A DNA stretch of 32,000 bases from Cupriavidus necator (GCF_016127575.1 NZ_CP066019.1:810001-842000), one strand, 5' to 3'; counted from the first letter of the stretch, positions 2,331-12,869 are shown. Notes: generated from the letters alone by a model not told the origin. Numbers and translations: made by a program.

Positions 2331-4514
2331 ATGCTGCTTGCGCAGCTCAGCCGTGCCCGGCGCCGCGCGCCGTTTTCGTTCCAGCCTGTTGTGCCAGACC
2401 TGCGCCCGGTCCAGGCGCGTTCATTGCGGCCGGTTGCCGCCCTGATGCTGGCGATGTCCGGCCTGGCCGAGGCGGCGGATACCACCGAGGCCTCCGATAT
2501 TACGCTGCCGGCGGTGTCGGTGGTCGGCACGGCCTCCGCATCATACAACCCGCCCGACGCCTCCGGCGCGACCCGCACCGACACGCCGCTGCGCGAAATT
2601 CCACAGTCGGTGCGCGTGGTGCCGCGCGCCATGCTGGACGATATCGCCGCGACCCGTTTCGCCCAGACCTTCGACTATGTCAGCGGCATCGCGCGCCAGA
2701 ACAACTTCGGCGGCCTGTGGGACAACTTCGCCATGCGCGGCTTCACCGGCCATGAGAACACCGGCGCGGGCTACCTGGTCAACGGCTTTGCCGCCAACCG
2801 CGGCTATACCGCGCCGATGGATGCGGCCACGATCGAACGCGTGGAAGTGCTCAAGGGCCCGACGTCATCGCTGTACGGCACCAGCGAGCCGGGCGGCACC
2901 TTCAACGTGGTCACGCGCCAGCCGCAGTTCCGGCCTGCGCAGCGCTATGGCTTCGAGCTTGGCACGCGCGACGGCTATCGTGCCACGGCCGATGTCACCG
3001 GCCCGCTTGGCGAGAACGTGGCCGGCCGGCTGATCGCCGTGGCCGACCACCAGGGCAGCACGCGCGACTACATCAACAGCCAGCGCTACCTGGTGGCGCC
3101 GTCGTTCACCTGGACCCTGGGCAACGACACCGTGCTGCAGTACGCGGCCGAATTCCAGCGCTACACCACGCCGATGGACCGCGGCGTGGTGGCCGTCAAC
3201 GGCCAGCTGGGCCGCATCCCGCGCTCGCGCTTCCTGGGCGAGCCCGGCGACGGCGACATGCGGCTGGACAGCCAGTCGCACCAGCTCAGCGTGGAGCACC
3301 AGTTCAGTCAGAACTGGAAGGGCAGGCTCGGCCTGTCCTACCGCGGCGGCGCACTGACGGGACATAGCAGCGAGGCGACTTCACTGGCCGCCGACGGCCG
3401 CACGCTCTGGCGCCAGCGCCGCTACCGTGACTTCCAGTCGGACGATGTCTCGCTGCAGGCCAGCGTGACCGGCAAGTTCAGCACCGGCCCGGTCGGGCAT
3501 GAACTGCTGATGGGGGTGGATGCCTACCGCTTCGGCAATACCATGGCGATCCTGCGCAAGAACCCCAGCGCCGCGGCGCCGTACGCGATCGACATCTACG
3601 ACCCGGCCTATGGCCAGCCGGCGCCGCCGATGCCGTGGAACATGGACACGTACGAGCGCCAGCGCAATCTCGGCGCCTACGCGCAGGACCAGCTGAGCCT
3701 GGGCGAGCGCTGGCGCGTGCTGGCCGGCGTGCGCTTCGACGCCTTCGACCAGTCGCTGGACAACCACCTGCGCGGCACGCGCACCACGCAGCACCAGAAC
3801 GCAGTGTCGCCGCGCGTGGGCGTGAGCTACCTGGCCAGCCAGAACGTGTCGCTGTTTGCCAATGCCAGCCAGTCATTCCGTCCCAATGCCGGCGCCGACG
3901 CCGCGGGGCTGCCGTTCGACCCCGAGCGCGGCCGCGCGGTGGAGGCCGGCATCAAGTTCGACAGCGAGGACCGCCGCAGCGGCGCCACGCTGGCCATCTT
4001 TGAGATCCGCAAGCGCAATGTGCTGGCCACCGACCCGTCCGATCCCTCCTTCTATATCGCCGCCGGCGAAGCGCGCAGCCGCGGCCTGGAGCTGGATGTG
4101 GCCGGGCAGCTTGGCACCCACTGGCGCGTATCGGGCAGTTTTGCGCTGACCGATGCCGAGATCACGCAGGACACGCGCCTGGCCGCCGGCACGCCGCTGT
4201 CCAACGTGCCGCGCACCAGCGGCAGCGTGCTGGCGGTGTACGAGGATGCCGCGCCGGTGGGCCAGCGCTATGGCGTTGGTGCCGGCCTGCGTTATGTGGG
4301 GCGGCGTCCGGGCGATGTGCAGGACAGCTTCTCGCTGCCGGCCTATGTGCTGGTGGACCTGCATGGCTACTGGCAATACAGCCGCAACGTGCGCGTGTCG
4401 CTCAACGTGGGCAACCTGTTCGACAAGACCTATTACGCCAGTTCGTACAGCAGCCTGTGGATTGCGCCGGGCGCGGGCCGCAGTGTGCGGCTGGGCGTGC
4501 AACTGAGCTATTGA
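2331..4514 (+). CDS. TonB-dependent siderophore receptor (no N-terminal signalling extension)
   Basis: ORF 2265..4514, with a likely start at ATG 2331 (MLLAQL...). Signal peptide ending AEA-AD, TonB-box-like DITLPAVSVVG, plug motifs (REIPQSVRVV, IERVEVLKGPTSSLYG), a long beta-barrel and a C-terminal aromatic ending in ...GVQLSY. Confidence 0.9.
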   Translation: MLLAQLSRARRRAPFSFQPVVPDLRPVQARSLRPVAALMLAMSGLAEAADTTEASDITLPAVSVVGTASASYNPPDASGATRTDTPLREIPQSVRVVPRAMLDDIAATRFAQTFDYVSGIARQNNFGGLWDNFAMRGFTGHENTGAGYLVNGFAANRGYTAPMDAATIERVEVLKGPTSSLYGTSEPGGTFNVVTRQPQFRPAQRYGFELGTRDGYRATADVTGPLGENVAGRLIAVADHQGSTRDYINSQRYLVAPSFTWTLGNDTVLQYAAEFQRYTTPMDRGVVAVNGQLGRIPRSRFLGEPGDGDMRLDSQSHQLSVEHQFSQNWKGRLGLSYRGGALTGHSSEATSLAADGRTLWRQRRYRDFQSDDVSLQASVTGKFSTGPVGHELLMGVDAYRFGNTMAILRKNPSAAAPYAIDIYDPAYGQPAPPMPWNMDTYERQRNLGAYAQDQLSLGERWRVLAGVRFDAFDQSLDNHLRGTRTTQHQNAVSPRVGVSYLASQNVSLFANASQSFRPNAGADAAGLPFDPERGRAVEAGIKFDSEDRRSGATLAIFEIRKRNVLATDPSDPSFYIAAGEARSRGLELDVAGQLGTHWRVSGSFALTDAEITQDTRLAAGTPLSNVPRTSGSVLAVYEDAAPVGQRYGVGAGLRYVGRRPGDVQDSFSLPAYVLVDLHGYWQYSRNVRVSLNVGNLFDKTYYASSYSSLWIAPGAGRSVRLGVQLSY

Positions 4515-4516
4515 CG

Positions 4517-5734
4517 ATGCTGCCAGCCAAGGCGCGCACTGCCGCGCCCCTGTCTTCTCCGACAGATTTCCCTTCTGCCGCGGTCGCGCGGCCGGCCGGC
4601 GGCCGGCTGCTGTCCATCGACGCTCTGCGCGGACTGGTGATCCTGATCATGCTGCTGGACCACGTACGGGACATGTTCTTCCTGCACGTCCAGGTGGCCG
4701 ATCCCATGGATGTCGCCACGACCTCTCCGGCACTTTTCTTCAGCCGGCTCGCCGCGCATCTGTGCGCACCGGTTTTCATCTGGCTGGCCGGCATATCGGT
4801 GTGGCTCTACGGTGCCGCCGGGAACGACCGGCGCGCCGTCAGCGGCTTCCTGCTCAGGCGCGGCGTGTTCCTGGTGCTGCTGGAGGTGACGCTGGTCGGC
4901 TTTGCCTGGACCGGGACCTTGCCGCCGCAGGTGATCTACCTGCAGGTGATCTGGGCCATCGGCCTGAGCATGATGGCGCTGGCGGCACTGGTGTGGCTGC
5001 CGCGGGCGGTGCTGATTGCCGCGGGCATTGCGCTGGTTGCCGGCCACAACCTGCTGAGCCCGCTGCATTTCCCGGTGGACAGCGCCTGGCACGTGCCCTG
5101 GGCCATCCTGCACGACCGCACCTGGATCGAGGTGGCTGATGGTTTCAGGGTGCGTACCTCATACCCGGTGCTGCCGTGGATCGGCGTGATCGCGCTGGGC
5201 TATGCGGCGGGGCCGTGGTTTGCCGTCACGGTGCCTGCCGCGGTACGGCAGCGGCGGCTGGCTGGATGCGGGCTGGCGGCGCTGGCAGGCTTTGCGGTGC
5301 TGCGCGCGCTGAACGGCTACGGGCAGGAGCAGAAATGGCTGGCGGGCAGCGACGCCTTGCATACCGCGATGAGCTTCCTCAACGTCACCAAATACCCGCC
5401 GTCGCTGCTGTTCCTGCTGCTGACACTGGGCGTGGGCTGGTTGCTGCTGGTGTGGCTGGAGCGAGCGCAGGGCAGCTGGATCGCGCGGCGCCTGGCTGTG
5501 TTCGGCGCCGTGCCGATGTTCTTCTACCTGCTGCACCTCTACGTGCTGCAGGGGCTGTACCAGGCTTGCGTGCACCGCTGGGGCCTGAACCAGGGCAAGG
5601 TGTTCGGCCTCGACCACGTCTGGCAGCTGTGGCTGGGCGCGGCCGTGCTCGCCCTGGCGCTGTGGCCGGCGGTGCGCTGGTTCGCGGCGCTGAAAGCAAG
5701 GCGGCGGGACTGGCGCTGGCTGAAGTACTTCTGA
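4517..5734 (+). CDS. DUF1624 / heparan-alpha-glucosaminide N-acetyltransferase-like polytopic membrane protein
   Basis: The ATG at 4517 lies 2 nt after the receptor stop (translational coupling). RLLSIDALRGLVILIMLLDH is the characteristic DUF1624/acyltransferase_3-like N-terminal motif. About 10 hydrophobic segments. Confidence 0.7.
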   Translation: MLPAKARTAAPLSSPTDFPSAAVARPAGGRLLSIDALRGLVILIMLLDHVRDMFFLHVQVADPMDVATTSPALFFSRLAAHLCAPVFIWLAGISVWLYGAAGNDRRAVSGFLLRRGVFLVLLEVTLVGFAWTGTLPPQVIYLQVIWAIGLSMMALAALVWLPRAVLIAAGIALVAGHNLLSPLHFPVDSAWHVPWAILHDRTWIEVADGFRVRTSYPVLPWIGVIALGYAAGPWFAVTVPAAVRQRRLAGCGLAALAGFAVLRALNGYGQEQKWLAGSDALHTAMSFLNVTKYPPSLLFLLLTLGVGWLLLVWLERAQGSWIARRLAVFGAVPMFFYLLHLYVLQGLYQACVHRWGLNQGKVFGLDHVWQLWLGAAVLALALWPAVRWFAALKARRRDWRWLKYF

Positions 5735-5762: not shown

Positions 5763-7622
5763 TCAGCGCGGCGTGGCCGCGACGGGTGCCGGCTGTGCCG
5801 CCGCCGGGGATTGCGCCGGAGCCTGAGGTTGCGCTGCGGCCTGGGGCTGGGCTGCTGCCTGAGCCGGTGCCACGGCTTGAGGCTGTGTGGCGGCTTGGGG
5901 CCGTGCCACGGCCTGAGGTTGCGCCGCGGCTGGAGGTTGCGCCGCGGCTGGAGGTTGCGCCACGGCCTGCGGCTGCGCCACGGCTTGAGGCCGTGCCACC
6001 GCCTGGGGCTGTGCCGCGGCTTGCGGCCGCGCGGCGGGTGCCTGGCGTGCGCCGCCATTGGCCGCCGGGGCGGCCTCGGTCACCTCGCGCCAGCCGCCGC
6101 CGAGCGACTTGTACAGCGATACGCGGCTGGTCAGGCCGGCCAGCTTGTACGTGATCAGCGCCTGCTGCGCGGTGTAGAGCTGGCGCTGCGCGTCGAACAC
6201 GCCGAAGTAGTCGTCCACGCCGTTCTTGAAACGCATTTCCGACAGCCGCCGGGTCTCGCTGCCTTCGCGCACCAGCGCTTCCTGCGCCTGCACCTGGCGC
6301 TCGTAGGTGGCGCGTGCCGCCATGCTGTCGGCCACTTCGCGGAACGCGGTCTGGATGGTCTTCTCGTAGTTGGCGATGTTGATGTCCTTGCGCACGTTGG
6401 CCGCATCCAGCCCGGCCCGGTTGCGGCCGGCGTCGAAGATCGGCACGGTCAGCTGCGGCGCGAACACCCATGCCATGCCGCCGGAGAACAGCCCCGCCAG
6501 GCTGCTGCTGGCCACGCCCAGCGCGCCGGTCAGCGAGATGCGCGGGAAGAACGCCGCGCGTGCCGCGCCGATATTGGCGTTGGCCGCCTTGAGGCGGTGT
6601 TCGGCGTTGAGGATGTCGGGGCGGCGCACCAGCACGCTGGACGGCAGCCCTTCGGGGAACTCGCTCACCAGGGTGCGCGCGTCCAGCGGATCTCGCGCGG
6701 CGGCGTTGGCGTTGGCCGTTGCCGCGCCGGCATCGGTCACGGATTTCGGCAACGGGCCGCCGATCAGCAAGGACAGCGCGTTCTCATCCTGCGCCACCTG
6801 CCGCGTGTATTGCTCAACGCCGACCTGCGAGGTCTGCACCTGGGTTTGCGCGCGATGCTGGTCCAGCTGCGCCATCGCACCAACCTGCCGCCCGCGCCGC
6901 ACCATCTCCGCCGCGTCCTGCTGCGTCTTCAGCGTGTCCTGCGACAGCTTCAGCAGCGCGCGGTCGGCCAGCAGCGTCAGGTAGGCGTTGGCCACCTCGG
7001 ACACCAGGCTGATCTGCGCGCTGCGGCGCGCTTCCTCGGTGGCCATGTATTCCTCGAGCGCGGCATGCTTGAGGCTGCGCACCCGGCCGAAGAAATCAAG
7101 CTCGAACGCCGTAAAGCCGATGCCCGCGTTGTAGGTGGTGATCTGCGGCGACTGGCCCGCCGCGCGCAGCCGTTGCGGCAACCGCTGCGAGACCATGCCG
7201 GCATTGCCTTCCACCGTGGGGAACTGCGCCGCGCGCTCGATCTGGTACAGCGCGCGCGCTTCGTCGATGGCAAGCGTGGCCATGCGCAGGTCGCGGTTGT
7301 TGGCCAGCGCCAGTTCGATCAGCTGGCGCAGTTGCGGGTCGACGAAAACATCGCGCCATCCCAGGTCCGCGGCCGAAGGGCCGGCGGGTTGAGCCGGCTG
7401 GCCCGGCTGCGCCGCACCGGCCTGCGGGGTGCGGTAGGCAGCGCCCTCCGGCCACGCCGACGGGACCGGCGCGTCGGGGCGCTGGTACTGCGGTTCGAGC
7501 GTGCAGGCAGCAAGGGCCAGCACGAGTGCGCCGGGCAGCAGCAGGCGCGGCGGGGGCAGGGTACGGGGGCGTGGCAGGCTTCGCATGGATGGTTCCGGAG
7601 AGTGGGGATTGTTATCTGGCAT
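5763..7622 (-). CDS. NodT/TolC-family outer-membrane efflux lipoprotein (OMF) with a roughly 105-aa Pro/Ala/Gln repeat C-terminal tail
   Basis: Lipobox LALAAC after a basic n-region. Two OEP-type repeats (LIELALANNRDLR..., FFPRISLTGALG, LFDAGRNRAGLDAA, SLYKSLGGGW). The ATG at 7622 lies 3 nt after the GT2 stop. An alternative start is ATG 7586 (MRSLPRPR...). Confidence 0.9.
   Translation of the reverse strand: MPDNNPHSPEPSMRSLPRPRTLPPPRLLLPGALVLALAACTLEPQYQRPDAPVPSAWPEGAAYRTPQAGAAQPGQPAQPAGPSAADLGWRDVFVDPQLRQLIELALANNRDLRMATLAIDEARALYQIERAAQFPTVEGNAGMVSQRLPQRLRAAGQSPQITTYNAGIGFTAFELDFFGRVRSLKHAALEEYMATEEARRSAQISLVSEVANAYLTLLADRALLKLSQDTLKTQQDAAEMVRRGRQVGAMAQLDQHRAQTQVQTSQVGVEQYTRQVAQDENALSLLIGGPLPKSVTDAGAATANANAAARDPLDARTLVSEFPEGLPSSVLVRRPDILNAEHRLKAANANIGAARAAFFPRISLTGALGVASSSLAGLFSGGMAWVFAPQLTVPIFDAGRNRAGLDAANVRKDINIANYEKTIQTAFREVADSMAARATYERQVQAQEALVREGSETRRLSEMRFKNGVDDYFGVFDAQRQLYTAQQALITYKLAGLTSRVSLYKSLGGGWREVTEAAPAANGGARQAPAARPQAAAQPQAVARPQAVAQPQAVAQPPAAAQPPAAAQPQAVARPQAATQPQAVAPAQAAAQPQAAAQPQAPAQSPAAAQPAPVAATPR
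5793..6032 (-). repeat. Degenerate 18-bp (6-codon) in-frame tandem repeat, about 12-13 units, encoding (A/V)A(Q/R)PQA
   Basis: Protein tail: ARPQAAAQPQAVARPQAVAQPQAVAQPPAAAQPPAAAQPQAVARPQAATQPQAVAPAQAAAQPQAAAQPQAPAQSPAAAQ. The DNA has two perfect adjacent 18-mers, GAGGTTGCGCCGCGGCTG, at 5915-5932 and 5933-5950, flanked by diverged copies. Confidence 0.85.
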
Positions 7623-7625
7623 GGT

Positions 7626-9587
7626 TCAGCCCAGCAGCGCGCGCCGCACAAAGCGCGACAGCGCCAGCTTGGGCTGCCCCTGCCGGGCAATGTTGTGTGC
7701 GGGATCGGTGAACAGCAGCCGGATCAGCGCGTGGCGCGCCGCCATGCCGGCGTTCAGGGCGATGCCCAGCAACTGGCCGTCGCGGCGCACCACGCGGCAC
7801 GGGATCCAGCCGGCCTGCGCCAGCCACAGCGCGCCCTCGGTGCCGGCTGGAATGGCCGGCGCCAGCGGCGTGGTGACGGCAACGCCGTTGCAGGAAAGAT
7901 CCCTGGTGGTCACGCGGTATTCCTTGCCATCCACGCGCAGCAGCGCTGCCGCGCGGTGCGGGAAGCGCTCTTCCTTGCGCGGGCGCGGCAGTTCCACGCA
8001 GACCAGCAGCGAGGCCAGGTACAGCATCAGCGCCACCCCGGTCCAGATGGTGTTGAAGGCGAGCCCTTGCGCATCGGGGTCCACCACCAGGGCGCGGCCC
8101 AGTCCCAGCGCGGAGAAGCCCAGCAGCCCCGCGTACAGTGCAGCGAACTTGCCGTGGATCACCAGTTTGGAGCGGTCCAGCCCCTTGTTGGTCACCTTGA
8201 AAGGCCGTCCGAACGGCTTGAACATCGCGCTCACCAGCGATGCGGTGACGGCCAGCGCCGCCACGATCTGCGTGACTTCGGTGAAGATCGGCAGCGCGCG
8301 CTGGCCGGTGATCCAGATGCTGTACGCCCAGTACGCCACCAGCGCCGGCAGGCCGTAGGCGAGAAACTGCAGCGGCTCGCCATACAGGGTGGAGACGCCG
8401 AGGTACCAGTACAGCAGCGGCCCTGCCAGCAGCATCAGCGTGAATGGCCGCGACAGCCAGTGCAACAGGCCGTGCACGTAGTGCAGCCGCTGCATCCCGG
8501 TGTAGCCGCGCCCGCGCAGCGGCCCGTCCGCGGTCAGCGCCACCTGGATCGTGCCCAGCCCCCAGCGGCTGCGCTGGCTGATGTACTCGGGCAGGCCTTC
8601 GGCTGACAGGCCCACGCTCAGGCGCTCATTGAGCCAGCGCGTGATATAGCCGTGCGGCAGCAGCCGGTAGGTCAGGTGGATGTCCTCGGTCACCGTGCCG
8701 GTGGGGAAGCCGCCGATCAGGTCGATCAGGTCGCGCCGCACCACGAACGAGGTGCCGATGCAGAACGCCGCGCCCCAGGCGTCCTTGGCCGGCTGCATCA
8801 CGTCGAAGAAGGCGCGTTGCTCATCGACCCAGCATTCGGTGGCGCGCAGGTTGTACTGGATCGGATCCGCGTTGTAATAGAACTGAGGTGTCTGCACCAC
8901 GCCCACGCGCGCATCGCTGAACAGCCCCACGGTGCGCAGCAGGATATTGCGATGCGGCGCGAAGTCGGCGTCCAGCACCAGGATGTAGGGCGCGCCGCCG
9001 GCCGCGGCGCTGTGGCGCAGGCCGTTGTTGAGATTGCCGGCCTTGGCGTGGGCGTTGTCCGGGCGCGTCACGTAGTGCGCGCCGACCCGTTCGCAGAACT
9101 CGCGCAGCCAGTCGCGGCGGGTGTCGTCCAGCACCCAGACGCGGAAGTCGGGATAGTCGATCGCCAGCGCCGAGACAATGGTCTTCTCCAAAATGTCCAG
9201 GCCTTCGTTGTAGGTGGCGATGAAGATGTCCACCGGCGGCACCTGCTTCGCGCGGCGCAAGGCGGCCTCGCCCGCGTCGGCGTCGGGGGTGTGGTTGCTG
9301 GTGCGCGCCAGCACCACGATCGACAGCAGCGTATAGGCCAGCGTCATGCATTCGAAGGCAAAGAACACATGGGCCCACACGCTGGCGAAGTTCATCTGCC
9401 AGTCGGGCAGCGTTTCGCGGACGCGCCAGGTCAGGTATACCGCCAGCAGCAAGGCGGTGACGCCGCCGAACAGCACGCGGTCCGCCGGCCGGTCTTGCCG
9501 GCACAGCATCGAGAGCAGCACCATCGCCAGCAGCACGCCGCCGTTGATGACCAGCAGCGTCTGGTTTTCCAGAAACAGGGCGAACAT
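7626..9587 (-). CDS. Processive family-2 glycosyltransferase (BcsA/BgsA-class beta-glycan synthase) with a C-terminal PilZ domain
   Basis: Start is ATG 9587, with AAGGAG 7 nt upstream. The rest of the 840-aa ORF is an overlap artefact. 653 aa with 4 N-terminal and about 4 C-terminal TM helices. Motifs: IATYNE, VLDDT, NAHAKAGNLN, LDADF (DxD), QTPQFYYN, FCIGTS, TEDIHLT (TED), QRSRWGLG (QxxRW). Confidence 0.9.
   Translation of the reverse strand: MFALFLENQTLLVINGGVLLAMVLLSMLCRQDRPADRVLFGGVTALLLAVYLTWRVRETLPDWQMNFASVWAHVFFAFECMTLAYTLLSIVVLARTSNHTPDADAGEAALRRAKQVPPVDIFIATYNEGLDILEKTIVSALAIDYPDFRVWVLDDTRRDWLREFCERVGAHYVTRPDNAHAKAGNLNNGLRHSAAAGGAPYILVLDADFAPHRNILLRTVGLFSDARVGVVQTPQFYYNADPIQYNLRATECWVDEQRAFFDVMQPAKDAWGAAFCIGTSFVVRRDLIDLIGGFPTGTVTEDIHLTYRLLPHGYITRWLNERLSVGLSAEGLPEYISQRSRWGLGTIQVALTADGPLRGRGYTGMQRLHYVHGLLHWLSRPFTLMLLAGPLLYWYLGVSTLYGEPLQFLAYGLPALVAYWAYSIWITGQRALPIFTEVTQIVAALAVTASLVSAMFKPFGRPFKVTNKGLDRSKLVIHGKFAALYAGLLGFSALGLGRALVVDPDAQGLAFNTIWTGVALMLYLASLLVCVELPRPRKEERFPHRAAALLRVDGKEYRVTTRDLSCNGVAVTTPLAPAIPAGTEGALWLAQAGWIPCRVVRRDGQLLGIALNAGMAARHALIRLLFTDPAHNIARQGQPKLALSRFVRRALLG
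7629..7979 (-). other. PilZ (c-di-GMP binding) domain of the GT2 synthase
   Basis: The last 117 aa start with RKEER (RxxxR), followed 21 residues later by DLSCNG (D/NxSxxG). This is the canonical PilZ motif pair, placed directly after the last TM helix as in BcsA. Confidence 0.75.
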
Positions 9588-9589
9588 CG

Positions 9590-10942
9590 TCACTCCTTGG
9601 CGGCGGTGTTGATAGGGGCGGTTGCAGGTGCCGCGGCCGCAATGGCCGGCGGCGGGCAGGACGGTTCCAGGCATCCGCCCGGACGGAAGGGGTTCCAGCG
9701 CGCCGCGGCCAGCACGGCCCATGCAGTGGCGCCCAGGTGGGGCAGGTGGAAGTAGTGGAAGTCCTCCGTGGTCGAGGTGGGCCCGATCGACAGCCCGGTG
9801 CTGATGCGCGCCTCGGGCGTGGCGTAGAGCATCCCGGACGGCGCCCGCTGCGACAGCAGCAGCTGCCACAGTGGCTGCGCCTGTTGCGCCTGCCCGGCGG
9901 CCTGCAGCACCAGCGCGGCCTGCCCGGTGCCTTCGGTCCAGATGCCGTCGGGGCCGCCCTTGAAGCCGTAGCCCGCGCCGGCGCGGTGCTTGGCCTCCAC
10001 CCACGCCAGGTTGCGGCGCCAGTCCTGCGGCGGGTCCGGGATCGCGATCAGCGGCCACAGCACCGCATCCAGCGCGGACGGGCCGGCGTTTGGCGCGCGC
10101 CCATCGTCGCGTGTGCCGATGATGAAGCGGCCCTCGCGCGCCTGCCACATGGCGCCGACAAAGCCGCGCGAGCGCGCCGCGCCGTCGCGCCAGCGCGGAT
10201 CGTTGCGCTGGCTGGCGAGCCAGCTGAAGGCGGCATAGGTATCGACGTTGTGCTCGGTTGATTTCCAGCCCTGGCGGGTCTGCTTCGGCTCATGGCCGAA
10301 GAAGCCGCCGATATAGCCGGCGGGCGCGCTCGTGTCGGGCACGGTGGCATGCACCCAGCCCATCAGCGCGGCGGCGCCATCCAGGTAGCGCGCATCGCGG
10401 GTGGCCTCATGCACGGCCAGCAGCAGCAGCGCGGCCCAGGCCACGTTACCGGTGGCAGTGCCGGCCTGGTAGGCATCTTCAAACCAGCGCTTGCTGGGCT
10501 CGTCCCACCAGCCTGGCAGGGGCACCGCGCCGGCCGGCAGCGGGCCGGCGCGATAGGCGTTGCGCAGGCGCGCATCGCGGAAGTGGCGGTCCTGGCGGGT
10601 TGCCTGCAGCACGGCGTCGGCAATGCGGCGCGCTTCGGCGGGACGCTTGCAGGCCACCAGCGCGATGCCGGCCAGCGCGTTGTCGTAGACGAAGGCGGCA
10701 TTGCGCAGCGCCGGGGCCAGCGGCCCGCCGCCCGGCGCCGGCTCATAGCTGGCGAGAAACAAGGGGCCGTTGCCGCTTTCACGGCTGACGCGCTCGGCCA
10801 GGGTCTTGCAGCCGTCGGCCAGCAGGGTCTGCTGGGCAGGCTCGGCAGCGCGCGCCGCGCCTGGCGCCAGCGCGAGCACGGCGGGAAGCAGCGCGCCGGC
10901 AACCAGGCGGGGCAGGCGTGCAGTCGGGATCGGCAGTCGCAT
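9590..10942 (-). CDS. Secreted protein of unknown function, possibly an (alpha/alpha)6-toroid glycan-processing enzyme
   Basis: 450 aa. Sec signal peptide (LLPAVLALAPGAARA-AEP). Recurring helix-hairpin motifs typical of alpha/alpha toroids (YDNALAGIALVA, GNVAWAALLLLA, STEHNVDTYAAF, LDAVLWPL, WTEGTGQAALVL, GATAWAVLAAA). The stop lies 2 nt before the GT2 start. The fold assignment comes from sequence patterns only. Confidence 0.7.
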   Translation of the reverse strand: MRLPIPTARLPRLVAGALLPAVLALAPGAARAAEPAQQTLLADGCKTLAERVSRESGNGPLFLASYEPAPGGGPLAPALRNAAFVYDNALAGIALVACKRPAEARRIADAVLQATRQDRHFRDARLRNAYRAGPLPAGAVPLPGWWDEPSKRWFEDAYQAGTATGNVAWAALLLLAVHEATRDARYLDGAAALMGWVHATVPDTSAPAGYIGGFFGHEPKQTRQGWKSTEHNVDTYAAFSWLASQRNDPRWRDGAARSRGFVGAMWQAREGRFIIGTRDDGRAPNAGPSALDAVLWPLIAIPDPPQDWRRNLAWVEAKHRAGAGYGFKGGPDGIWTEGTGQAALVLQAAGQAQQAQPLWQLLLSQRAPSGMLYATPEARISTGLSIGPTSTTEDFHYFHLPHLGATAWAVLAAARWNPFRPGGCLEPSCPPPAIAAAAPATAPINTAAKE

Positions 10943-10969
10943 CCGGGGCTCCTTTGCCTGCGTCGGCGG

Positions 10970-12352
10970 TTATATCAGCGATGCCCGCAGCTGGCCCAGC
11001 CAGCTCTGGTTCAGCGTCACGCGCGCCCAGCGGCCCATGCCGCAATGGCCGGACTGGGTTGGCCCTGCCGCTGCCCGTGCTGCTGCCCCTGACGCCCCGC
11101 CAGCCTTGCCGGGCACGTTGCCCAGCGGGCGGTCGAGCTTGGCGATCACATAGATCTCGTTCTTCTCGATCGGCGGGAAGGGCACGAAGTAACGCGCCTG
11201 GTCGCCGTCCGGCGCGCGCGGCAGTACCTCTGCCACCGATGCCGGCAACGCCGTGGGCACGCCGTCGACATTCACGTTCAGCCGTGCACCGGGCAGCAGG
11301 TTGTCGCTGAGGCTGCGCGGGAACACCGCAACCACGCGCGTCTGCGCGCAGTTGCTGGCGCGCGCCAGGGTGGCGCCGGCGGCCACGCGCATGCCGGGCT
11401 GCGCGATCAGGTCTTCGATGGTGCCGGGTTCGGCCGAGCGGATCTCCAGGTTCGAAAGCCGGTCGAGGCGTTCCTGTTCCGTGGCGATCATCTCGTCCAC
11501 CGACTTGCCATAGGCCTCCAGTTGTTCCAGCTCTGCCGTCAGCTGTGCCGATTCCGCGCCCAGTACCTGGCGCCGCTGGGCCAGCGTGGCGCTGGGGCCG
11601 TCGGTGGATGAGGCATAGACCTTGTTGCGCGCGGCCTCGCTCACGCTGACTGCGTTATCGAGCTCGGCCTTGGCCGCTGCCTTGGCATTGGAAAGCATCG
11701 ACAGCTGGTAGCGCGAGGCATTGGTGTAGGCCTCGCTGACGGCCCCGGCCCACTGCATGTTCTGGTTGCGGTTGACCACTTCCTGCTGCTGGTCTTCCTG
11801 TGCCCGGGCCGATGCCAGGCGCGCCTCCAGGGCGCGCACGCGCGCACCGTGCTCGCGTTGCGCAGCGCTGTTGTAGCGCTGCAGGTCCTGCTCGGTGGCG
11901 GCCATCAGCCGGCGGTTGCTTTCCAGCCGCGCGCGGGCGGAGTCATGGCGCTGCTGGTTGTCGAGCTTCTTGCCGGTCAGGTCGACCAGCAGCGAACGGT
12001 CGATGTTCGGGTTCTGCACGATCATCAGCGCCTGGTTGGCCGAGAACGACTGGCCCGCGGCCACCATCTGCTTCGTCACGATGCCTTCCACGGGAGAAGT
12101 CACCAGGCTGACCGGACTGTTCACCACGGCCCGCTCCGACGAGCGCGTAAACACATTTGGAAACATGATTGTCAGTACGGCCCAGATGATGAACAGCACC
12201 ACGCCGTAGCCCGCCATGCGCGGCACGATGTGCCAGAGCGGCACGGTAACGGGCTGCGGGCGTTGCACCAGGCCGTCGCCGTGGGGCTGGCGCAGCGGAG
12301 CCGGTGTCAGCGGGTGTTGTCTGGGTGGCGGATTATTGCGCTGGTCGGCCAT
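10970..12352 (-). CDS. HlyD/EmrA-type membrane fusion protein (periplasmic adaptor)
   Basis: The ATG at 12352 has GGAGAA 7 nt upstream. The track start at 12370 is a TTG without an RBS. Pro-rich cytoplasmic N-terminus, one TM (GYGVVLFIIWAVLTIMF), a lipoyl-like half-motif (VTSPVEGIVTKQMVAAGQSF), a roughly 200-aa coiled-coil region, and a beta-barrel part (EIRSAEPGTIEDLIAQPGMRVAAGATLA). Confidence 0.85.
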   Translation of the reverse strand: MADQRNNPPPRQHPLTPAPLRQPHGDGLVQRPQPVTVPLWHIVPRMAGYGVVLFIIWAVLTIMFPNVFTRSSERAVVNSPVSLVTSPVEGIVTKQMVAAGQSFSANQALMIVQNPNIDRSLLVDLTGKKLDNQQRHDSARARLESNRRLMAATEQDLQRYNSAAQREHGARVRALEARLASARAQEDQQQEVVNRNQNMQWAGAVSEAYTNASRYQLSMLSNAKAAAKAELDNAVSVSEAARNKVYASSTDGPSATLAQRRQVLGAESAQLTAELEQLEAYGKSVDEMIATEQERLDRLSNLEIRSAEPGTIEDLIAQPGMRVAAGATLARASNCAQTRVVAVFPRSLSDNLLPGARLNVNVDGVPTALPASVAEVLPRAPDGDQARYFVPFPPIEKNEIYVIAKLDRPLGNVPGKAGGASGAAARAAAGPTQSGHCGMGRWARVTLNQSWLGQLRASLI

Positions 12353-12392
12353 GGTGTTGTTCTCCGGCAAGCAAAGTCAAAAAGCGTCCCCG

Positions 12393-12417
12393 CCGGCATG
12401 CACAGGGTGCATGCCGG
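12393..12417 (-). promoter_or_regulatory. Perfect 11-bp-stem hairpin in the leader, 41-65 nt upstream of the MFP start codon
   Basis: CCGGCATGCAC-AGG-GTGCATGCCGG. On the transcribed (minus) strand it is followed after 9 nt by TTTTT and then the GGAGAA RBS. It could be an attenuator, a processing site or a protein-binding site. Confidence 0.4.
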
Positions 12418-12869
12418 ATGAGCGAAAATTCCACGCAAGCGGGTAGCGTCGCGCAAGGGCTGTCGCGCGGTGCCCGGCTTGCATGTCCCCAATTCAGCTT
12501 GTTGTCTGCAGCACGCTCGATGTGGCCAGGCCGTATCGGCGCGCCTTGCATTCGGGCCGACAAGCGGCCCCTGGATTTGCCCGGCTTCATCCGGGCAGAG
12601 TTGAACAATGGCCAGTCAATGGCCAAGAAGTGGCAGCCCGCTGACGCAAAGATTCATGCACTCAGGCCGCCGTGTGTGAGTTAAAGGCTAGTCAGTTGCC
12701 CCGTCCCTTGCTGTAAAAATGTGTAAGGGGAGGCTGTAGCACTGCTTAACACGGCAGTAACATGACATGCAATGAACGACGAATACAGCACACATTGACG
12801 GGGTTTTGACGCTGGTACGGAGTTGAGTCCGGCAGCGATGGCAGTTGGCGCGCGCTGCGGTGACGCGGG

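What the first reader, a model, noticed from the sequence alone, without database searches (positions are those of the whole stretch)
5763..12352. PilZ-gated processive glycan synthase embedded in an efflux-pump-like scaffold (HlyD-type MFP + secreted alpha/alpha protein + GT2-PilZ + TolC/NodT-family OMF): candidate new exopolysaccharide secretion architecture
Seen in sequence:
- Four minus-strand CDS have gaps of only 27, 2 and 3 nt (12352->10970, 10942->9590, 9587->7626, 7622->5763).
- A 517-bp non-coding leader precedes them and a convergent gene bounds them, so this looks like one self-contained operon.
- The GT2 has every hallmark of BcsA-class processive beta-glycan synthases (4+4 TM, DxD, TED, QRSRW).
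- It also has a canonical PilZ motif pair (RKEER ... DLSCNG).

Established knowledge:
- Synthase-dependent systems (cellulose, alginate, Pel, PNAG) export through a TPR/beta-barrel porin (BcsC, AlgK/AlgE, PelB/PelC, PgaA).
- Cellulose synthase also needs BcsB. None of these is encoded here.
- The partners found here are the conduit parts of type I secretion / drug efflux systems: an EmrA/HlyD-type adaptor with a long coiled coil, and a lipoprotein OMF.
- The nearest described relatives I can name are S. meliloti BgsB(MFP)/BgsA(c-di-GMP-activated GT2, mixed-linkage beta-glucan) and Alg44 (PilZ fused to an MFP-like domain). To my knowledge neither has a dedicated TolC-like duct or this third gene.

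Inference:
- A c-di-GMP-activated polymer is made and moved across the inner membrane by the GT2.
- It is then threaded through an MFP-OMF channel.
- The secreted 450-aa protein would play the periplasmic glycan-processing role (compare BcsZ, AlgL, PelA).
Basis: partly seen in the sequence, partly recalled or inferred. Interest (0 to 1): 0.85.

Follow-up and report, generated by a model that had tools for sequence, protein, structure and literature searches.

The report
Glucan synthase operon with own efflux-type duct
A Cupriavidus operon couples a c-di-GMP-gated cellulose-synthase-like enzyme to an efflux-pump-type adaptor, its own outer-membrane duct and a new sugar-processing protein; the design is already proposed for cyanobacterial cellulose and rhizobial mixed-linkage glucan, but this self-contained four-gene form is widespread and unstudied.

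Summary
Four minus-strand genes, with gaps of 27, 2 and 3 nt, encode:
- an EmrA/HlyD-type membrane fusion protein (MFP);
- a secreted 450-aa protein with no family ("X");
- a GT2 synthase with every catalytic and PilZ motif;
- a NodT-family outer-membrane factor (OMF) lipoprotein.

The order MFP-X-GT2-OMF is kept in 61 of the 62 X-GT2 loci with enough flanking DNA. These span Cupriavidus, Burkholderia, Pandoraea, Pseudomonas, Dyella/Rhodanobacter and Variovorax. In Variovorax the synthase and the OMF form one reading frame that still carries the lipoprotein signal.

X models confidently as an (alpha/alpha)6 barrel resembling glycosidases and epimerases. The same domain recurs in large surface proteins.

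The synthase belongs with MFP-partnered synthases such as S. meliloti BgsA (40% identity), not with BcsAB-type cellulose synthases (about 28%).

The claim of a new architecture is overstated. A synthase/HlyD/TolC tripartite route with an endoglucanase was proposed for cyanobacteria in 2018, and TolC was shown to be required for BgsBA glucan in 2026.

What I could not find described is the operon-encoded dedicated OMF, the X family and the natural fusion.

Verdict: a real, coherent system and a new variant of a known kind. The polymer is unknown.

The parts
12353..12869 (-). 517-nt leader before the MFP gene. About 400 nt (12353 to about 12755) are conserved and probably form a structured 5' UTR or regulatory region, ending in a hairpin plus T-run (12388-12407) about 35 nt before the ATG.
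   Evidence: - Coordinates.
- 77-94% nucleotide identity in 15 Cupriavidus loci although the upstream neighbour differs.
- Hairpins with insertions and deletions at their tips; 5 pairs show compensatory change.
- No Rfam match and no sigma-70 consensus.
10970..12352 (-). Membrane fusion protein (periplasmic adaptor), EmrA/HlyD type. Model elements: one N-terminal membrane helix (aa 45-63), a lipoyl domain, a hairpin of about 80-residue helices (aa 120-201 and 207-300) and a beta-barrel.
   Evidence: - Pfam HlyD_D23 and HlyD_3 above cutoff.
- AF2 model pLDDT 76.
- Best fold matches are EmrA in EmrAB-TolC (8zal, 8zar) and EmrA alone (4tko), E about 1e-16.
- 20% identical and colinear with S. meliloti BgsB, E 2e-7.
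9590..10942 (-). Secreted periplasmic protein X: Sec signal peptide (..ARA|AE), an (alpha/alpha)6 barrel, no assigned family. Candidate glycan-processing enzyme.
   Evidence: - No Pfam or NCBIfam hit.
- AF2 pLDDT 89, pTM 0.88.
- Foldseek matches to GH76, cellobiose 2-epimerases, MmpH and a GH8 endoglucanase: TM 0.6-0.69, 10-15% identity.
- No sequence homology to GH8 BcsZ.
- 2068 representative clusters carry the domain, many inside large proteins with SLH, PA14, Ig or fn3 domains.
7626..9587 (-). Processive GT2 synthase of the BcsA/BgsA superfamily with a C-terminal PilZ domain.
   Evidence: - Domain hits and motifs.
- 234 bits to E. coli BcsA structures, including the PilZ region.
- 40% identity to BgsA over 536 aa.
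- Groups with MFP-partnered synthases in 200 of 200 NJ bootstraps.
7710..7979 (-). PilZ domain (aa 537-626) with RKEER and DLSCNG, the inferred c-di-GMP gate.
   Evidence: - Pfam PF07238 47 bits, cutoff 22.5.
- The motif pair is kept in 61 of 69 family members. It is invariant in Burkholderiaceae and degenerate in Pseudomonas, Variovorax and Agrobacterium.
5763..7622 (-). NodT-family outer-membrane factor lipoprotein (lipobox LAAC, Cys40) with a Pro/Ala/Gln-rich C-terminal tail.
   Evidence: - TIGR01845 394 bits, cutoff 210; Pfam OEP 165 bits.
- N-terminal sequence.
- Directly follows the GT2 in all 61 complete loci.
- Fused in frame to the GT2 in Variovorax.
5812..6037 (-). 18-bp tandem repeat, 12.6 copies, encoding the hexapeptide-repeat tail of the OMF.
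   Evidence: Tandem Repeats Finder. Tail length varies among homologues.

Best explanation
This is a self-contained, synthase-dependent exopolysaccharide system of the tripartite (efflux-pump-like) type, probably making a beta-glucan.

Proposed steps:
1. The inner-membrane GT2 polymerises a UDP-sugar, most likely UDP-glucose. It pushes the chain through its own channel when c-di-GMP binds the PilZ domain and frees the gating loop.
2. The single-pass EmrA-like adaptor takes the place that BcsB holds in cellulose synthases. It assembles into a periplasmic tube whose long hairpins dock on a dedicated NodT-family OMF trimer, so the chain leaves through a TolC-type duct instead of a BcsC/AlgE-type porin.
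3. The periplasmic (alpha/alpha)6 protein X trims, releases or modifies the chain, in the role of BcsZ or XcsC.

Shown here: gene content, motifs, folds, co-inheritance of the four genes, the gene fusion, and relatedness to BgsBA.

Inferred: c-di-GMP binding, the sugar and its linkage, passage of the chain through the MFP-OMF tunnel, and any catalytic activity of X.
For: - Tight operon with all domains and motifs present.
- Of 80 X-anchored loci from different species, 68 have a GT2 next to X. Of those, 61 have MFP-X-GT2-OMF in that order, 6 are cut by contig ends, and 1 lacks the OMF.
- The same block appears when anchored on the GT2 in Pseudomonas, Dyella, Burkholderia and Variovorax.
- The identities of all four proteins fall together from about 90% to 30-55% across taxa, which indicates inheritance as a unit.
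- Variovorax genomes have GT2-PilZ and OMF as one ORF with the signal peptide and lipobox retained at the junction.
- MFP fold: best matches are EmrA within EmrAB-TolC, with a hairpin of about 80 residues per helix.
- The GT2 clusters with MFP-paired synthases, BgsA included, and apart from BcsAB-type enzymes. X-containing and OMF-containing subclades are nested inside that group.
- X is a confident six-hairpin barrel. Its domain recurs in surface proteins carrying carbohydrate-binding or cell-wall-anchoring modules.
- Experimental precedent exists: TolC is required for BgsBA glucan (PMC13438883), and XcsA/XcsB/TolC/XcsC act in cyanobacterial cellulose.
Against: - There is no experimental data for this operon.
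- The TIGR03030 cellulose-synthase equivalog is not reached, so the polymer is unknown.
- A sealed MFP-OMF tunnel would hide the chain from periplasmic X, so the roles of X and of the tunnel are not obviously compatible.
- Even the authors of the BgsBA-TolC work cannot exclude an indirect role for TolC.
- Alphaproteobacterial relatives lack an adjacent OMF.
- PilZ motifs are degenerate in some clades.
- X gives no family-level match and no identified catalytic residues.
Confidence: 0.68

Rival explanations
1. The MFP is only an inner-membrane partner or activator of the synthase (a BcsB or Alg44 analogue). The OMF does not carry the glycan. Instead it serves indirectly, for example by exporting another factor or by pairing with other pumps, and the polymer crosses the outer membrane by another route.
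For: - The authors of PMC13438883 state that an indirect TolC role cannot be ruled out.
- Alphaproteobacterial relatives work with no adjacent OMF.
- Periplasmic X needs access to the chain, which a sealed tunnel would deny.
Against: - 61 of 62 testable loci keep the OMF directly after the GT2.
- GT2::OMF is a single reading frame in Variovorax.
- The long EmrA-like hairpin is the element that contacts TolC-type ducts.
- No porin or TPR gene is found among the window ORFs scanned.
Confidence: 0.17
2. The product is not a long extracellular polymer. It is a short or periplasmic oligosaccharide, cut to size by X and expelled like a small molecule through the MFP-OMF pump. This would parallel NodC chito-oligosaccharide synthesis with NodT-family export.
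For: - The OMF is of the NodT family.
- NodC is a weak GT2 relative at 32 bits.
- X looks like a hydrolase and sits between the MFP and the GT2.
Against: - The full BcsA-type channel and gating loop FxVTxK plus the PilZ gate are hallmarks of processive polymer synthases.
- The closest characterised relative, BgsA, makes a high-molecular-weight glucan.
Confidence: 0.1
3. The adjacency is incidental: an ordinary drug-efflux adaptor and OMF happen to lie beside a cellulose synthase gene.
For: Public annotations call the MFP a 'multidrug transporter' or 'HlyD family secretion protein'.
Against: - The operon has no inner-membrane pump gene.
- The order is conserved across two proteobacterial classes.
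- The fusion exists.
- The flanking genes differ between genera.
Confidence: 0.02

Closest known systems
BgsBA mixed-linkage beta-glucan system of Sinorhizobium meliloti, plus housekeeping TolC
   Same: - An HlyD-type MFP gene lies directly upstream of a c-di-GMP-activated BcsA-like GT2, and there is no BcsB or BcsC.
- The GT2 is 40% identical over 536 aa, with the same 3+4 membrane layout.
- The MFP is colinear with BgsB.
- The GT2s share a clade apart from BcsAB-type enzymes.
- A TolC-type duct is required in S. meliloti.
   Different: - BgsA binds c-di-GMP through a non-PilZ C-terminal domain; this GT2 has a canonical PilZ.
- bgsBA has two genes and uses the unlinked general TolC; this operon adds a dedicated NodT-family OMF and protein X.
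- The MFPs are only 20% identical.
- The linkage type of the product here is unknown.
Cyanobacterial Xcs system (XcsA PilZ-cellulose synthase, XcsB HlyD-like, XcsC endoglucanase, TolC; Maeda et al. 2018)
   Same: It has the same four functional parts and the same proposed tripartite route replacing BcsB and BcsC.
   Different: - In cyanobacteria TolC is never in the operon, and in T. vulcanus all the genes are scattered. The 2025 review names this as a weakness of the model.
- XcsC is described as a BcsZ-type endoglucanase, whereas X has no detectable homology to GH8.
- Sequence relatedness to the Xcs proteins could not be tested here.
BcsABZC cellulose secretion system
   Same: - GT2 with D,D,D,QxxRW, an FxVTxK gating loop and a PilZ gate.
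- A periplasmic alpha/alpha-barrel accessory protein, as BcsZ is.
   Different: - The operon and the rest of the window have no BcsB and no BcsC or TPR porin.
- About 28% identity to the BcsA of BcsAB-type loci.
- TIGR03030 is below its cutoff.
Alg8/Alg44/AlgK/AlgE alginate system
   Same: A c-di-GMP (PilZ) gated synthase works with an MFP-like periplasmic partner.
   Different: - In alginate the PilZ sits on the MFP-like Alg44, not on the synthase.
- Alginate leaves through the AlgE porin with the TPR protein AlgK, not through an OMF.
EmrAB-TolC and other tripartite efflux or type I secretion assemblies
   Same: The MFP fold and long hairpin match EmrA best. The OMF is a bona fide NodT/TolC-superfamily member.
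   Different: The inner-membrane partner is a glycosyltransferase-translocase, not an MFS, ABC or RND transporter. The energy would come from polymerisation.

Membership tests
Processive BcsA/BgsA-superfamily GT2 synthases | GT2 fold with D, DxD, (T)ED and Q(R/Q)xRW motifs and an FxVTxK gating loop, flanked by membrane helices | tested here: met
   - Pfam GT2 81 bits.
- DAD206, TED300, QRSRW338, FKVTNK463, HAKAGN180.
- 3+4 hydrophobic segments.
- Aligns to E. coli BcsA residues 270-774.
Bona fide cellulose synthase BcsA (TIGR03030 / NF008558 equivalogs) | Score above the curated equivalog cutoff | tested here: not met
   TIGR03030 scores 384 bits against a 699 cutoff. NF008558 scores 288 bits against a 992 cutoff.
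Bona fide cellulose synthase BcsA (TIGR03030 / NF008558 equivalogs) | Obligate BcsB partner encoded next to bcsA | tested here: not met
   No BcsB in the operon or elsewhere among the window ORFs scanned. True BcsAB loci are shown for contrast.
PilZ c-di-GMP receptor domain (PF07238) | Pfam hit above cutoff, with RxxxR and (D/N)x(S/A)xxG motifs 20-30 residues apart | tested here: met
   47 bits against a 22.5 cutoff. RKEER537 and DLSCNG563 are present and conserved in 61 of 69 relatives.
PilZ c-di-GMP receptor domain (PF07238) | Binds c-di-GMP and activates the enzyme | not testable with these tools
   Needs binding and activity assays.
BgsBA-type MFP-dependent glucan synthase systems | HlyD-type MFP gene immediately upstream of a BcsA-like GT2, with no BcsB, and the GT2 in the BgsA clade | tested here: met
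   - Gene order.
- 40% identity to BgsA.
- MFP to BgsB E 2e-7.
- MFP-type clade in 200 of 200 bootstraps.
BgsBA-type MFP-dependent glucan synthase systems | Non-PilZ C-terminal c-di-GMP domain of BgsA; product is an alternating beta-1,3/1,4 glucan | tested here: not met
   The C-terminus here is a canonical PilZ and does not align with that of BgsA. The product cannot be tested.
Tripartite synthase-MFP-TolC secretion (Xcs model) | PilZ synthase, HlyD-like adaptor, TolC-type OMF and an accessory glycanase act together | tested here: inconclusive
   All four component types are present and co-inherited. Physical assembly and homology to the Xcs proteins were not testable.
HlyD/EmrA-type membrane fusion proteins | N-terminal membrane anchor, lipoyl domain, long alpha-hairpin, beta-barrel, no membrane-proximal domain | tested here: met
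   Pfam hits above cutoff. The model has these elements. EmrA is the top fold match.
NodT-family OMF lipoproteins (TIGR01845) | Score above cutoff, two OEP repeats, lipoprotein signal with lipobox Cys | tested here: met
   394 bits against a 210 cutoff, with two OEP stretches. LALAAC with Cys40.
Known glycoside hydrolase families for X (GH8, GH76, GH127 and others) | Family-level sequence match and the family's catalytic residues | tested here: not met
   - No Pfam or NCBIfam hit.
- Profile against PDB sequences: only a 40-residue GH76 stretch, E 4e-4.
- hhalign against GH8 BcsZ: probability 0.4%.
- Only a generic (alpha/alpha)6 fold match.

The most novel reading that the evidence does not exclude
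The MFP-X-GT2-OMF block defines a distinct, widespread class of synthase-dependent exopolysaccharide machines in beta- and gammaproteobacteria, Burkholderia pseudomallei-group species and Cupriavidus metallidurans included. In this class a nascent glycan is threaded directly through a dedicated TolC-type duct. X would found a new carbohydrate-active enzyme family, and the product would be a glucan not yet described. The Variovorax GT2::OMF reading frame, with its internal lipoprotein signal, would then be a natural inner-membrane/outer-membrane fusion precursor.
Probability: 0.4. Interest if true: 0.72.

Novelty: new variant of a known kind. Interest (0 to 1): 0.55.

Why it matters
- **It bears on an open question.** Whether a polysaccharide can leave the cell through a TolC-type duct is unsettled. 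The cyanobacterial model is criticised because TolC is not encoded with the synthase. The rhizobial work cannot exclude an indirect TolC role. An operon with its own OMF, kept in 61 of 62 testable loci and fused to the synthase in one genus, is the strongest genomic argument so far for direct coupling.
- **It offers compact, tractable test systems.** The four genes occur in Cupriavidus, Burkholderia and Pseudomonas.
- **It flags further candidates.** These are an unassigned (alpha/alpha)6 domain present in about 2000 protein clusters, and a probable unknown biofilm polymer in Burkholderia pseudomallei-group species.

Tried and rejected
- **Riboswitch in the leader.** Rfam at a permissive threshold found nothing. 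There is no sigma-70 consensus and no sigma-54 consensus above chance.
- **Palindrome before the ATG.** The exact palindrome is not conserved as sequence in any locus. The hairpin is kept through compensatory changes instead.
- **X as a divergent BcsZ/GH8.** Rejected by hhalign, probability 0.4%.
- **Pseudomonad 'Orphan' BcsA-like proteins as the same family.** Rejected: those are NdvB-type GH17+GT2 proteins without PilZ.
- **An earlier operon survey (Bundalovic-Torma 2020).** It does not mention efflux, TolC or MFP partners.
- **Published work on this operon.** Searches for it in Burkholderia and other Betaproteobacteria found none.
- **A false negative in my first count.** My first tblastn tally wrongly showed the OMF missing in L022, L044 and L055. 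Pfam scans (L022, L044) and phmmer on ORFs (all three) showed it is present.
- **Neighbouring genes as parts of the system.** The TonB receptor, HGSNAT-like protein, MFS and TRAP transporters are not conserved next to the block in other genera.
- **Nearby c-di-GMP enzymes.** None of the window ORFs scanned carries a GGDEF or EAL domain.

Full report
**1. The observation**

The window is from a Cupriavidus genome. Protein X is 100% identical to a hypothetical protein of Cupriavidus sp. GA3-3, and the GT2 is 98% identical to that of Cupriavidus sp. UYPR2.512.

Four minus-strand ORFs lie at 10970-12352, 9590-10942, 7626-9587 and 5763-7622, separated by 27, 2 and 3 nt. A 517-nt intergenic stretch precedes them and a convergent gene follows.

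- an HlyD-type adaptor;
- a protein with no family;
- a GT2 with a PilZ domain (47 bits, cutoff 22.5);
- a NodT-family outer-membrane factor (394 bits, cutoff 210).

All quoted motifs are present in the GT2: HAKAGN, DAD, TED, QRSRW, the gating-loop FKVTNK, RKEER and DLSCNG.

- Hydropathy shows three N-terminal and four C-terminal membrane segments plus an interface-helix-like segment. This matches BgsA, whose catalytic domain lies between helices 3 and 4, rather than the 4+4 layout of BcsA.
- The curated cellulose-synthase equivalog is not reached: 384 bits against a 699 cutoff.

Neighbouring genes are unrelated: a TonB-dependent receptor, an HGSNAT-like membrane protein, and MFS and TRAP transporters. 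None of the window ORFs scanned encodes BcsB, a BcsC-like protein or a GGDEF/EAL protein.

**2. Is the block real?**

A profile of X homologues found 279 species-level genomes with a relative, of which the best 80 loci were kept. I scored all four window proteins against ORFs of those loci (first pass). The 80 loci split as follows:

| Pattern | Loci |
|---|---|
| MFP-X-GT2-OMF, same order and strand | 61 |
| Consistent with the block but cut by a contig end | 6 |
| Has downstream sequence but no OMF (a Hyphomicrobiaceae MAG) | 1 |
| Separate X paralogue in Rhodanobacteraceae-like genomes | 12 |

- The 12 paralogues sit between ybeY and corC, away from any synthase.
- Look-ups anchored on the GT2 instead gave the same four genes in Pseudomonas, Dyella, Burkholderia oklahomensis and Variovorax, each with different flanking genes.
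- The identities of the four proteins decline together across taxa.
- Carriers include C. metallidurans, C. taiwanensis, B. pseudomallei, B. multivorans and B. ubonensis.

**3. A natural fusion**

In Variovorax and about twenty metagenomic clusters, the GT2 homologue is about 1,135 aa and carries the OEP domain on the same polypeptide. Four Variovorax genomes show no stop codon between the two parts. The junction keeps an internal Met, a hydrophobic signal segment and the lipobox L-S-G-C.

In the window, the GT2 stop codon and the OMF ATG are 3 nt apart and in the same frame. Two readings are possible: the fused frame is cleaved by the lipoprotein pathway, or the OMF is translated internally. 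Either way, this is a gene-fusion argument for functional coupling of the synthase and the duct.

**4. The parts**

*MFP.* The model (pLDDT 76) has these elements:
- a membrane helix (aa 45-63);
- a split lipoyl domain;
- a hairpin of helices 120-201 and 207-300;
- a beta-barrel.

Its best fold matches are EmrA inside the EmrAB-TolC pump and isolated EmrA, at E about 1e-16.

*X.* It has a Sec signal peptide and two invariant cysteines. It models at pLDDT 89 and pTM 0.88 as an (alpha/alpha)6 barrel.
- It resembles GH76 mannanases, cellobiose 2-epimerases, the MmpH hydrolase and a Pseudomonas putida endo-1,4-glucanase (PDB 4q2b). The match is only at the fold level: TM 0.6-0.69, 10-15% identity.
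- Sequence profiles give only a 40-residue GH76 match and no relation to GH8 BcsZ.
- An exhaustive profile search found 2,068 representative clusters (653 at E ≤ 1e-30). Many are proteins of 600-1,700 aa.
- In a sample of eight of these, the X domain is combined with SLH, PA14, Ig-like, fn3, Kelch or Listeria-Bacteroides repeat modules. Some also give sub-threshold hits to GH127 or GlcNAc 2-epimerase.

That is the usual make-up of secreted carbohydrate-active enzymes. X is therefore best read as an unclassified glycan-processing domain. Hydrolase is the leading guess and epimerase is not excluded.

*OMF.* It has a lipobox (Cys40) and a variable Pro/Ala/Gln tail encoded by an 18-bp repeat.

**5. 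Relationship to known synthases**

Against solved structures, the GT2 aligns best with E. coli BcsA (234 bits, PilZ region included) and with Rhodobacter BcsA (188 bits).

Against plasmid and chromid records, hits fall into two groups:

| Identity to window GT2 (tblastn) | Partner gene | Examples |
|---|---|---|
| 35-46% | HlyD-type MFP | Agrobacterium pAt1 (MFP-GT2-X; X 48% identical); S. meliloti BgsBA; Bradyrhizobium; A. fabrum pAt; Jannaschia |
| about 29-31% | BcsB (with BcsZ or BcsC) | Cereibacter, Klebsiella |

A 12-taxon neighbour-joining tree on 591 ungapped columns separates MFP-type from BcsAB-type synthases in 200 of 200 bootstraps. It nests the X-containing clade, and within it the OMF-containing clade, also in 200 of 200. 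The taxon sample is small, so the tree is indicative only.

Specific comparisons:
- The window GT2 is 40% identical to BgsA over 536 aa, but the C-terminal domains do not align. BgsA uses a non-PilZ c-di-GMP domain.
- The MFP is 20% identical to BgsB and colinear with it.
- The PilZ motif pair is invariant in Burkholderiaceae, kept in Rhodanobacteraceae, and partly degenerate in Pseudomonas, Variovorax and Agrobacterium.
- The catalytic ED of TED is always kept, as TED, CED or SED.

**6. Prior knowledge**

- The cyanobacterial tripartite model (Maeda et al. 2018) is summarised in two reviews. It combines the PilZ cellulose synthase XcsA, the HlyD-like XcsB, TolC and the endoglucanase XcsC.
- A paper of August 2026 shows that tolC disruption abolishes BgsBA mixed-linkage glucan. 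It proposes a BgsA-BgsB-TolC complex but admits that an indirect role is possible.
- The 2025 review notes that TolC is not in the same operon as xcsA and xcsB, and that this weakens the model.

I found no description of the proteobacterial four-gene operon. The library lacks most subscription journals, so absence is not proof.

**7. Mechanism and rivals**

Most likely (about 0.68):
- A c-di-GMP-gated processive synthase feeds its chain into an MFP tube docked on a dedicated OMF.
- X acts in the periplasm as a trimming, release or modifying enzyme.

The unresolved tension is how periplasmic X reaches a chain enclosed in a tunnel. X may act only on stalled or mis-routed chains, as is argued for BcsZ.

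Rivals:
- The OMF has an indirect role (about 0.17).
- The product is an oligosaccharide handled like a pump substrate (about 0.10).
- The adjacency is chance (about 0.02).

**8. Leader**

About 400 nt upstream of the MFP gene are 77-94% identical in 15 Cupriavidus loci, although the gene upstream of them differs. A 49-nt core persists in more distant species.

RNAalifold predicts several hairpins. Insertions fall at hairpin tips, and five pairs change on both sides, a count reached by only 4 of 500 shuffles. A hairpin plus T-run lies 35 nt before the start codon. There is no Rfam match.

This suggests a structured regulatory leader. The sequences are closely related, so the support is modest.

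**9. Verdict**

The finding is real and coherent. The novelty claim must be reduced: this is a new, more complete and self-contained variant of the already proposed synthase-MFP-TolC route. It adds an unassigned accessory enzyme family and a natural synthase-OMF fusion.

Noticed in passing
L002 8001-11411; L079, L082, L085 (Variovorax); proteins P0092-P0119: GT2-PilZ and the OMF form one reading frame of about 1,135 aa with no stop codon. The junction keeps an internal Met, a signal-peptide-like segment and the lipobox LSGC. This would be an inner-membrane enzyme fused to an outer-membrane lipoprotein precursor.
   Followed up: partly
window 12353-12755 (minus strand); alignments A3, A4: The leader of about 400 nt is conserved at 77-94% nucleotide identity in 15 Cupriavidus loci. 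It has predicted hairpins, insertions and deletions at hairpin tips, five compensatory pairs, and a terminator-like hairpin plus T-run at 12388-12407. It has no Rfam family. It is a candidate cis-regulatory RNA.
   Followed up: partly
window 5812-6037: An 18-bp tandem repeat of 12.6 copies encodes a Pro/Ala/Gln-rich hexapeptide-repeat tail at the C-terminus of the OMF. Tail length varies between homologues and its function is unknown.
   Followed up: partly
L056, L059, L061-L063, L068, L069, L072, L075, L076, L078, L080; L087: Rhodanobacteraceae-like genomes carry a stand-alone paralogue of X between ybeY and corC, with no synthase or MFP nearby. In L075 it is followed by an OEP-family gene.
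   Followed up: partly
proteins P0330-P0462: The X domain occurs in about 2,000 representative clusters. Many are proteins of 600-1,700 aa that combine it with SLH, PA14, Ig-like, fn3, Kelch or Listeria-Bacteroides repeat modules. It looks like an unclassified carbohydrate-active domain.
   Followed up: partly
L088 5381-10314 (Agrobacterium tumefaciens pAt1): This alphaproteobacterial variant has the order MFP-GT2-X, no adjacent OMF and degenerate PilZ motifs. On the GT2 tree it lies between BgsBA-type pairs and the four-gene block.
   Followed up: partly
names attached to P0126, P0145, P0149, P0181 and others: Several UniRef entries name X homologues 'Methylaspartate ammonia-lyase'. Neither fold nor sequence supports this name, and it looks like a propagated mis-annotation.
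   Followed up: no
window 4457-5734 (+): A convergent gene for an HGSNAT-like (PF07786) membrane protein ends 28 nt from the OMF stop. It is not found next to the block in other genera, so it is probably unrelated.
   Followed up: partly
GT2 residue 298-300 and homologues: The TED catalytic motif reads CED in Pseudomonas, Dyella and Variovorax, and SED in Agrobacterium. Only the ED is invariant.
   Followed up: yes
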